From IMG/VR virus record IMGVR_UViG_3300022775_000062, positions 1-5,586 of that record: a stretch of DNA of 5,586 nt; one strand, given 5' to 3'. The notes beneath the pieces are model-generated. The model made no database searches. It was not told where the DNA came from and saw only the letters and a program-made list of their open reading frames with translations. Source of the DNA: a virus (Duplodnaviria; Heunggongvirae; Uroviricota; Caudoviricetes). This document shows, one piece after another, positions 1,931 through 2,448 of this stretch. Each line of letters opens with the position of its first letter. Position 1 is the first letter of the stretch. A program made the position numbers and the translations under genes.

Positions 1931-2448
1931 TCACAGGCCGATATTGCGGCGGTGTTGCTCCAGCCGGTCGACGCCGTTCACCTTCTCAATCATGTTGATG
2001 GTGTCGATTTCGACCAGCTCCTTACCGTCCATCGTCAGCCGGAAATAGGTGCAGACCACGGAGATTTTCGACTCGGTGTCTTCTCCCTGTTTACCCTCAC
2101 CGGTGTCGATTTCTTTCTGACGGCCACGCATGACCACTTCGACGGCCACCGTTTCGCCGGTATCGTCGCGCTGGTAGAGCCTGCAAAACGAATCGGCACG
2201 GCATCCACGCCGGTTGCGGCGTAAAGCTCCCAGATAACCGAATCCGGGAAGCCCCCGAGCGACCACTCCATTGACAGCGCATCGTCATCAAGGCCGAGGT
2301 CTACCGGTGCGCTGCCGTTCATCCCCGCACCGCGATAGTTTTCGAGCTTACGGGTCAGTTTTGGCAGCGTGACGGACTTTGCAACGCCCTGATAGCTGTA
2401 GCCGTTCAGAAAGACGTTCATTAACTTGAGTTTGCGCGGCATTGCCAT
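1931..2448 (-). pseudogene. FII: Major tail tube protein (P2 FII-like); reading frame broken by an apparent 1-nt deletion near 2176
   Basis: ORF 2035..2448 (starts MAMPRKLKLMNVFLNGYSYQGV..., Shine-Dalgarno GGAG 8 nt upstream) reads through ...AVPIRFAGS. The protein-like sequence then continues in another frame as YQRDDTGETVAVEVVMRGRQKEIDTGEGKQ... to TGA 1931-1933. The two pieces sum to about 172 aa, the size of P2 FII. The span is 518 nt, not a multiple of 3; the frames switch at plus-strand 2174-2178 (ggtagag where ggtaagag is expected). Confidence 0.8.

What the first reader, a model, noticed from the sequence alone, without database searches (positions are those of the whole stretch)
2170..2182. 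Tail tube gene FII split by a 1-nt deletion
The frame reading ...PIRFAGS and the frame reading YQRDDTGETVAVEV... overlap by one nucleotide at 2176. The fragments sum to about 172 aa, the expected tube protein length. One missing A on the plus strand (ggtagag instead of ggtaagag) would restore a single ORF. The tube protein is essential, so a true frameshift here inactivates the tail.
Basis: seen in the sequence. Interest (0 to 1): 0.45.

Follow-up and report, generated by a model that had tools for sequence, protein, structure and literature searches.

The report
P2 tail-tube gene frameshift, probably sequencing error
The tail-tube gene of an ordinary P2-type prophage of E. coli is broken by one missing base, but this is one of eight single-base length errors unique to this sequence, so it is most likely a sequencing or assembly artefact, or at most a very recent trivial mutation.

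Summary
On the minus strand, gene FII (1931-2448) reads GGC TCT ACC where phage P2 and all relatives read GGC TCT TAC. One A of GGTAAGAG is missing at + strand 2175/2176. The fragments are 91 + 81 = 172 aa, and restoring the base gives a protein 100% identical to P2 gpFII.

The lesion is a singleton:
- The deleted allele has 0 exact hits in three contig collections.
- It occurs in 0 of 1,290 E. coli complete-genome records carrying this region.
- Neither the truncated product nor its out-of-frame tail is on record.
- The intact allele has at least 120 hits.

It is also not alone. The window carries eight private 1-nt indels and only four private substitutions. Six are +1 insertions packed into the first 480 nt, in tape-measure gene T. 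One is a C6->C5 deletion in a cargo MFS transporter gene. Repairing all eight reopens T, FII and MFS.

That pattern does not fit natural decay. It fits base-calling or assembly error, about 0.65. A genuine recent tail-inactivating mutation remains possible, about 0.3. Programmed recoding is essentially excluded: there is no slippery site and no conservation. Only reads or resequencing can decide. Interest is low.

The parts
1931..2448 (-). Gene FII (major tail tube protein), 518 nt here against 519 nt in all relatives. It is split into two reading frames.
   Evidence: Pfam PF04985 on both fragments and on the repaired protein. The repaired protein is 100% identical to P2 gpFII and to the FII of fiAA91-ss and E. 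coli 13TMH22. Alignment.
2174..2178 (-). Site of the 1-nt deletion: TCT|AC instead of TCT TAC (Ser91-Tyr92). On the + strand the single A at 2176 replaces AA.
   Evidence: The allele is absent from all other sequences searched.
2035..2448 (-). ORF as it stands: 91 native FII residues plus a 46-residue out-of-frame tail (TSATIPAKRW...APISG), then a stop.
   Evidence: The exact product is not on record. The tail has no match among 5.8 billion protein clusters.
1931..2176 (-). Native C-terminal 81 codons of FII (YQRDDTGE...RRNIGL*), now in the -1 frame relative to the start codon.
   Evidence: profile positions 86-165.
2461..3651 (-). Gene FI (tail sheath), intact, 396 aa.
   Evidence: Pfam PF04984, PF17482 and PF22671. 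The exact protein is on record in 25,082 blocks, and a 172-aa tube gene follows it in all 10 places shown.
1599..1874 (-). Gene E (tail assembly chaperone), intact, 91 aa.
   Evidence: Pfam PF10109. Annotation of relatives.
1620..1626 (-). TTTTTTG slippery heptamer of the genuine programmed -1 frameshift that makes E+E'. The E' extension runs to 1447.
   Evidence: Sequence. ORF 1447-1566. P2 annotation 'site of -1 translational frameshift'. PMC3091744.
1..1454 (-). 5' part of gene T (tape measure), which runs off the window. It is broken by six private +1 insertions at about 24, 239 (T5->T6), 253 (T4->T5), 288 (T4->T5), 463 (A4->A5) and 479 (C->CC).
   Evidence: with 0 substitutions in the first 418 nt against L079. 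Repair gives one 499-codon open frame. Pfam PF10145.
3920..5112 (-). Cargo MFS transporter gene in the G-FI slot of the prophage. It is broken by a private C6->C5 deletion at about 4091.
   Evidence: Relatives annotate an intact 1194-nt gene. Pfam PF07690. Repair reopens the frame.
5290..5586 (-). 3' part of a cargo alpha/beta hydrolase gene, which runs off the window.
   Evidence: Annotation of relatives.

Best explanation
The window is the FI-FII-E-T tail-gene block, plus a cargo cassette, of an ordinary P2-like (Peduovirus) prophage of Escherichia coli. The FII gene encodes the standard 172-aa tail tube protein. The missing base at 2175/2176 is most likely not in the organism's DNA. It is probably one of several single-base length errors introduced by base-calling, consensus or assembly in a low-quality, low-coverage sequence. 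That would be a homopolymer-prone platform or a poorly supported contig end. On this reading the real phage has an intact tube gene and nothing functional happens at this site. Shown: the gene's identity, the exact lesion, its uniqueness, and its company of seven other private indels. Inferred: that the cause is technical rather than mutational.
For: (1) The lesion is a singleton. The 32-mer spanning the deletion has 0 exact hits in genome contigs, viral contigs and metagenome contigs, while the intact 33-mer has at least 120 hits in viral contigs alone. None of the 1,290 E. coli complete-genome records carrying this 70-nt region matches without a gap. The 137-aa product is not on record among 153 billion gene positions. 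Its out-of-frame tail has no hit in 5.8 billion protein clusters.
(2) The background is otherwise identical to intact phages. Window 2001-2400 has 0 mismatches and 1 gap against L117 and L089. Window 1-400 has 0 mismatches and 4 gaps against L079 and L061.
(3) The window carries 8 private 1-nt indels against only 4 private substitutions. My recollection is that spontaneous indels in E. coli are roughly ten-fold rarer than substitutions.
(4) Six of the eight are +1 insertions inside the first 480 nt (binomial P = 1e-5). This points to a position-dependent quality problem at the end of the sequence.
(5) Five of the eight lie in homopolymer runs of 4 or more, which make up 6.5% of the bases (P = 6e-5).
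(6) The indels hit unrelated genes alike: phage T, phage FII and the cargo MFS gene. Repairing all eight restores every frame.
(7) One private substitution (5273) removes the inner C of a CCTGG Dcm site present in relatives. From my own knowledge this is a typical nanopore consensus error. It is weak evidence.
(8) Gene-fragmenting indel errors of this kind are a documented property of error-prone assemblies (PMC12007338).
Against: No reads or quality values are available, so the artefact is inferred and not shown. The FII deletion lies 1.7 kb from the insertion cluster and in a run of only two A's, which is not a classic homopolymer-error site. Taken alone, the interior of the window (481-5586) has 2 indels and 4 substitutions, a ratio that real mutation under relaxed selection could produce (my rough estimate is about 10%). 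Prophage genes do decay in nature, so a genuine singleton frameshift cannot be excluded.
Confidence: 0.65

Rival explanations
1. The 1-nt deletion is a genuine, very recent mutation, so the prophage is tail-defective. Translation would give 91 native residues plus 46 nonsense residues. The C-terminal 81 residues of a single-domain tube protein would be lost, so no tube could polymerise and no sheath could assemble on it. Induction would then yield non-infectious, tail-less particles. If the other indels are also real, T and the MFS cargo gene are dead too.
For: The frameshift is unambiguously in the sequence. PF04985 and the R2-pyocin tube structures (3j9q/5w5e, 6pyt) align end to end with the 172-aa protein, so the break is in the middle of one domain. 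P2 annotates the neighbouring F-operon genes E, T and U as essential tail proteins, and from textbook knowledge FII is also essential. The absence of accumulated substitutions would simply mean the event is recent. A2->A1 slippage is a plausible spontaneous mutation.
Against: The allele is seen nowhere else. It travels with seven other private indels and only four private substitutions. Six of those indels are +1 insertions clustered in 480 nt with no accompanying substitutions, and I know of no natural mutation process that gives this. Once part of the sequence is shown to be unreliable, a lone real frameshift elsewhere in it becomes an ad hoc assumption.
Confidence: 0.32
2. The two FII frames are joined during expression by programmed -1 ribosomal frameshifting or transcriptional slippage, as happens for E/E+E' 550 nt downstream. 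The tube protein would then still be made.
For: A -1 shift anywhere in the roughly 230-nt zone where both frames are open (2035-2266) would join them. The same operon does use a real -1 frameshift at TTTTTTG.
Against: There is no X_XXY_YYZ heptamer in the 0 frame anywhere in the 137-aa ORF. No A or T run longer than 4 lies in the overlap zone. Every relative encodes FII as one frame. The tube protein is needed in large stoichiometric amounts, which low-efficiency slippage could not supply (inference).
Confidence: 0.02

Closest known systems
Bacteriophage P2 gpFII, major tail tube protein (NP_046779.1; Pfam PF04985 Phage_tube)
   Same: It has the same gene order, FI-FII-E/E+E'-T. The DNA is about 98-99% identical. 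After one base is restored the protein is 172/172 identical.
   Different: One base is missing between codons 91 and 92, so the gene as written is split.
P2 E/E+E' programmed -1 translational frameshift (Christie et al. 2002, cited in PMC3091744)
   Same: Two overlapping reading frames within a tail gene of the same operon. The genuine TTTTTTG site is present and intact in this window at 1620-1626.
   Different: The FII junction has no slippery heptamer, is not conserved in any relative, and splits a single domain rather than adding an extension.
Gene-fragmenting single-base indel errors in error-prone assemblies (e.g. PMC12007338, Kastor)
   Same: Private 1-nt indels, mostly in homopolymers, fragment genes that are otherwise identical to intact references. 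All frames are restored by reference-guided repair.
   Different: The platform and the coverage are unknown here. The FII site is only a 2-nt run.
Defective or cryptic P2-like prophages with pseudogenised structural genes
   Same: An essential tail gene carrying a frameshift inside a chromosomal prophage.
   Different: It shows none of the usual marks of decay: no accumulated substitutions, no larger deletions, no IS elements, and no sharing of the allele by a lineage.

Membership tests
P2 FII / Phage_tube (PF04985) major tail tube protein | Full-length match to the Phage_tube domain | tested here: met
   The repaired protein matches profile positions 1-165/165 at E = 2.3e-60. The fragments cover 1-99 and 86-165.
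P2 FII / Phage_tube (PF04985) major tail tube protein | Position immediately downstream of the sheath gene FI and upstream of E/E+E' and T | tested here: met
   Order of ORFs and Pfam matches in the window. The same order is seen in P2 and in relatives.
P2 FII / Phage_tube (PF04985) major tail tube protein | A single uninterrupted ORF of about 172 codons | tested here: not met
   As written, the gene is split at 2176. The feature is met only after one base is restored.
Programmed ribosomal frameshift (recoding) site | A slippery heptamer X_XXY_YYZ in the upstream frame within the frame-overlap zone | tested here: not met
   None occurs anywhere in ORF 2035-2448.
Programmed ribosomal frameshift (recoding) site | The two-frame arrangement is conserved in relatives | tested here: not met
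   All relatives have one frame. This holds for the records inspected, for at least 120 viral contigs carrying the intact 33-mer and for 1,290 E. coli records.
Sequencing or assembly indel artefact | The allele is unique to this sequence on a background identical to intact references | tested here: met
Sequencing or assembly indel artefact | It is accompanied by other private 1-nt indels, homopolymer-biased or clustered, in excess of private substitutions | tested here: met
   There are 8 indels against 4 substitutions. Six of the eight lie in the first 480 nt (P = 1e-5). Five of the eight lie in runs of 4 or more (P = 6e-5).
Sequencing or assembly indel artefact | Reads or quality values contradict the consensus at the site | not testable with these tools
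   No reads or quality data are available. The source of the window is not in any collection searched.
Genuine prophage pseudogene | The same lesion is found in independent assemblies or lineage members | tested here: not met
   There are 0 occurrences outside the window.
Genuine prophage pseudogene | Signs of relaxed selection around the lesion, i.e. accumulated substitutions | tested here: not met
   There are 0 substitutions in 2001-2400 against L117 and L089. Only 4 private substitutions occur in the whole window.

The most novel reading that the evidence does not exclude
The deletion is real and the lysogen still makes functional tube protein from the split gene, through an unrecognised low-signal recoding event. 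A second version is that a tail-less P2-like prophage is kept for its cargo cassette (LysR regulator, hydrolase, MFS transporter) or for lysis functions. Neither version has positive support. There is no slippery site, the cargo MFS gene is itself frameshifted in this sequence, and the allele is a singleton.
Probability: 0.02. Interest if true: 0.3.

Novelty: not a real feature. Interest (0 to 1): 0.06.

Why it matters
It matters little biologically. If the deletion is real, it is one more defective P2-like prophage, which is a well-known outcome. Its practical value is as a quality flag. This 5.6-kb sequence carries about 1.4 single-base indels per kb relative to otherwise identical references. 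Any 'pseudogene' or 'frameshift' call in it, including T and the MFS transporter, should not be trusted without read support.

Tried and rejected
- Programmed frameshifting or transcriptional slippage at FII is rejected. There is no X_XXY_YYZ heptamer, no long A or T run, and no conservation.
- Naturally short tube proteins ending near RFAGS are rejected. All relatives are 172 aa, and PF04985 and the pyocin tube structures span the full length.
- I looked for the same allele elsewhere. Exact-pattern scans of three contig collections, a 70-nt scan of E. coli complete genomes, exact-product look-ups for three broken ORFs and a search with the out-of-frame tail all came back empty. These results also show that the window's source is not in those collections, so I could not identify its origin or sequencing platform.
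- I looked for the Ogr-type TGT-N12-ACA dyad upstream of FI and found no exact match. I did not pursue it.
- The first 25 nt looked divergent against E. coli Trh52. This proved to be ordinary T-gene mosaicism, because they are identical to IMG/VR L079 apart from one inserted T.

Full report
**What the window is.**
All the relevant genes lie on the minus strand.
- Gene T (tape measure, PF10145) runs from 1454 off the left end of the window.
- E' occupies 1447-1566 and E occupies 1599-1874 (PF10109).
- FII occupies 1931-2448 (PF04985, split).
- FI, the sheath, occupies 2461-3651 (PF04984, PF17482, PF22671).
- An MFS transporter gene occupies 3920-5112 (PF07690, split).
- The 3' end of an alpha/beta hydrolase gene starts at 5290 and runs off the right end.

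Megablast places the block in P2-like (Peduovirus) prophages of E. coli. About 1,540 of 5,426 complete genomes carry the FII region at 95-99.7% identity, and so do P2-like phages such as fiAA91-ss. Two genomes, E. coli O84:H7 Trh52 and O170:H18 CFIAFB20120266, carry the whole window including the cargo. There it sits in complete P2-like prophages between tail-fibre-assembly gene G and FI, the slot that holds Z/fun in P2. In both genomes T (815 aa), FII (172 aa) and the MFS gene (397 aa) are all intact.

**Check of the observation.**
The Ser codon TCT is 2178-2176 and the Tyr codon TAC is 2176-2174, so the two frames share base 2176. The native parts are 91 and 81 residues, together 172. The only gap in the alignment with P2, fiAA91-ss and three E. 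coli copies is in the window: TC-TAC against TCTTAC, which is GGT-AGAG against GGTAAGAG on the + strand. Restoring the A gives a protein 172/172 identical to P2 gpFII and to the FII of fiAA91-ss and E. coli 13TMH22. The Phage_tube profile is matched over 1-165/165. The protein also aligns end to end with the solved R2-pyocin tube proteins 3j9q/5w5e and 6pyt. The break is therefore in the middle of a single domain.

**The lesion is a singleton.**
- The 32-mer across the deletion has no exact match in genome contigs, viral contigs or metagenome contigs.
- With a 70-nt query centred on the site, none of 1,290 E. coli complete-genome records reaches 99% identity. All the best hits are 98.6% over 71 record bases, which means one gap.
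- The 137-aa product is not on record among 153 billion gene positions.
- Its 46-residue out-of-frame tail has no hit among 5.8 billion protein clusters.
- By contrast, the window's FI protein is on record in 25,082 blocks, and a 172-aa tube gene follows it in all ten places shown.

**The lesion is not alone.**
Alignment to the intact relatives shows eight single-base indels private to the window.
- In gene T there are six +1 insertions: at about 24, at 239 (T5->T6), 253 (T4->T5), 288 (T4->T5), 463 (A4->A5) and 479 (C->CC).
- In FII there is a -1 deletion at 2175/2176 (AA->A).
- In the MFS gene there is a -1 deletion at about 4091 (C6->C5).

The background is otherwise identical to known intact phages. 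Window 1-400 has 0 mismatches and 4 gaps against IMG/VR loci L079 and L061. Window 2001-2400 has 0 mismatches and 1 gap against L117 and L089. After all eight indels are repaired in silico, T (499 codons to the window edge), FII and MFS become single open frames. Only four positions then carry a base seen in no relative. Two are nonsynonymous C>T changes in T, at 1223 and 1310. Two are intergenic, at 5249 and 5273. The broken T and MFS products are also absent from the public gene index. Six of the eight indels fall in the first 480 of 5,586 nt (P = 1e-5). Five of the eight fall in homopolymer runs of 4 or more, which make up 6.5% of the sequence (P = 6e-5).

**Interpretation.**
Eight private indels against four private substitutions is not what spontaneous mutation or prophage decay produces. 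This is clearest in the 480-nt stretch that has six +1 insertions and no substitution over its first 418 nt. From my own recollection of E. coli mutation-accumulation work, indels are about ten-fold rarer than substitutions, and bacterial pseudogenes are biased towards deletions. The pattern is what base-calling or consensus error gives in a low-coverage or poorly polished stretch, typically a contig end, on a homopolymer-sensitive platform. Such gene-fragmenting errors are well documented (PMC12007338).

One private substitution, at 5273, converts the CCTGG Dcm site of the relatives to CTTGG. From my own knowledge this is a typical nanopore consensus error. It is a weak hint only.

Because part of the sequence is demonstrably unreliable, the FII deletion is most economically one more error. 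I put this at about 0.65. It is not proven. The site lies outside the cluster and in a run of only two A's. The interior of the window taken alone (2 indels, 4 substitutions) could be real. I give the rival reading, a genuine and very recent tail-inactivating mutation, about 0.3.

**If the deletion were real.**
The product would be 91 native residues plus 46 nonsense residues. It would lack the C-terminal half of the tube fold, so no tube, and hence no sheath assembly and no infectious particle, would be expected. This is inferred from full-length domain and structure coverage and from the textbook essentiality of the P2 F-operon tail genes (annotated for E, T and U).

**Recoding.**
Recoding is effectively excluded. 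The upstream frame contains no X_XXY_YYZ heptamer. The frame-overlap zone has no A or T run longer than four. No relative shares the arrangement. The operon's genuine programmed -1 site, TTTTTTG for E+E', is present and intact at 1620-1626 and shows what a real signal looks like.

**Verdict.**
The gene identity and the lesion are right. The biological reading is probably wrong because the lesion is most likely an artefact. In either case nothing new is involved: it is either a sequence error or an ordinary defective prophage. Interest is low.

Noticed in passing
window 1-480: Six private +1 insertions (at about 24, 239, 253, 288, 463 and 479) break tape-measure gene T. The stretch has no substitutions over its first 418 nt against IMG/VR locus L079. 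This looks like a low-quality end of the sequence, and together the insertions add 6 nt.
   Followed up: yes
window 4087-4096: The cargo MFS transporter gene (3920-5112, minus strand) is split by a private C6->C5 deletion. All E. coli relatives listed, from 103 genomes covering at least 80% of the query, have it annotated as an MFS transporter gene.
   Followed up: yes
window 3652-5586; L003 15912-19474: A three-gene cassette (LysR regulator, alpha/beta hydrolase, MFS transporter) fills the G-FI cargo slot of this P2-like prophage, the position of Z/fun in P2. The same cassette occurs in other mobile contexts: next to an integrase near yjjG in STEC299, and near torT beside a tail-fibre gene in Rb-50. 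Its function is unknown.
   Followed up: partly
window 1620-1626 (minus strand): The conserved TTTTTTG slippery site for the genuine programmed -1 frameshift E -> E+E' is intact. The E' frame is open to 1447.
   Followed up: yes
window 1223, 1310, 5249, 5273: These are the only four private substitutions. Two are C>T changes causing Ala->Thr at positions invariant in 120 relatives of T. The one at 5273 destroys a CCTGG (Dcm) site present in relatives, which may be a methylation-related consensus error.
   Followed up: partly
window 3745-3780 (minus strand): A GC-rich hairpin followed by a T run (GGCGGGCTGATTGCCCGCCTTTTCTTT) lies between the MFS cargo gene and FI. It looks like an intrinsic terminator that insulates the cargo from the late F operon. 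No exact Ogr-type TGT-N12-ACA dyad was found upstream of FI.
   Followed up: no
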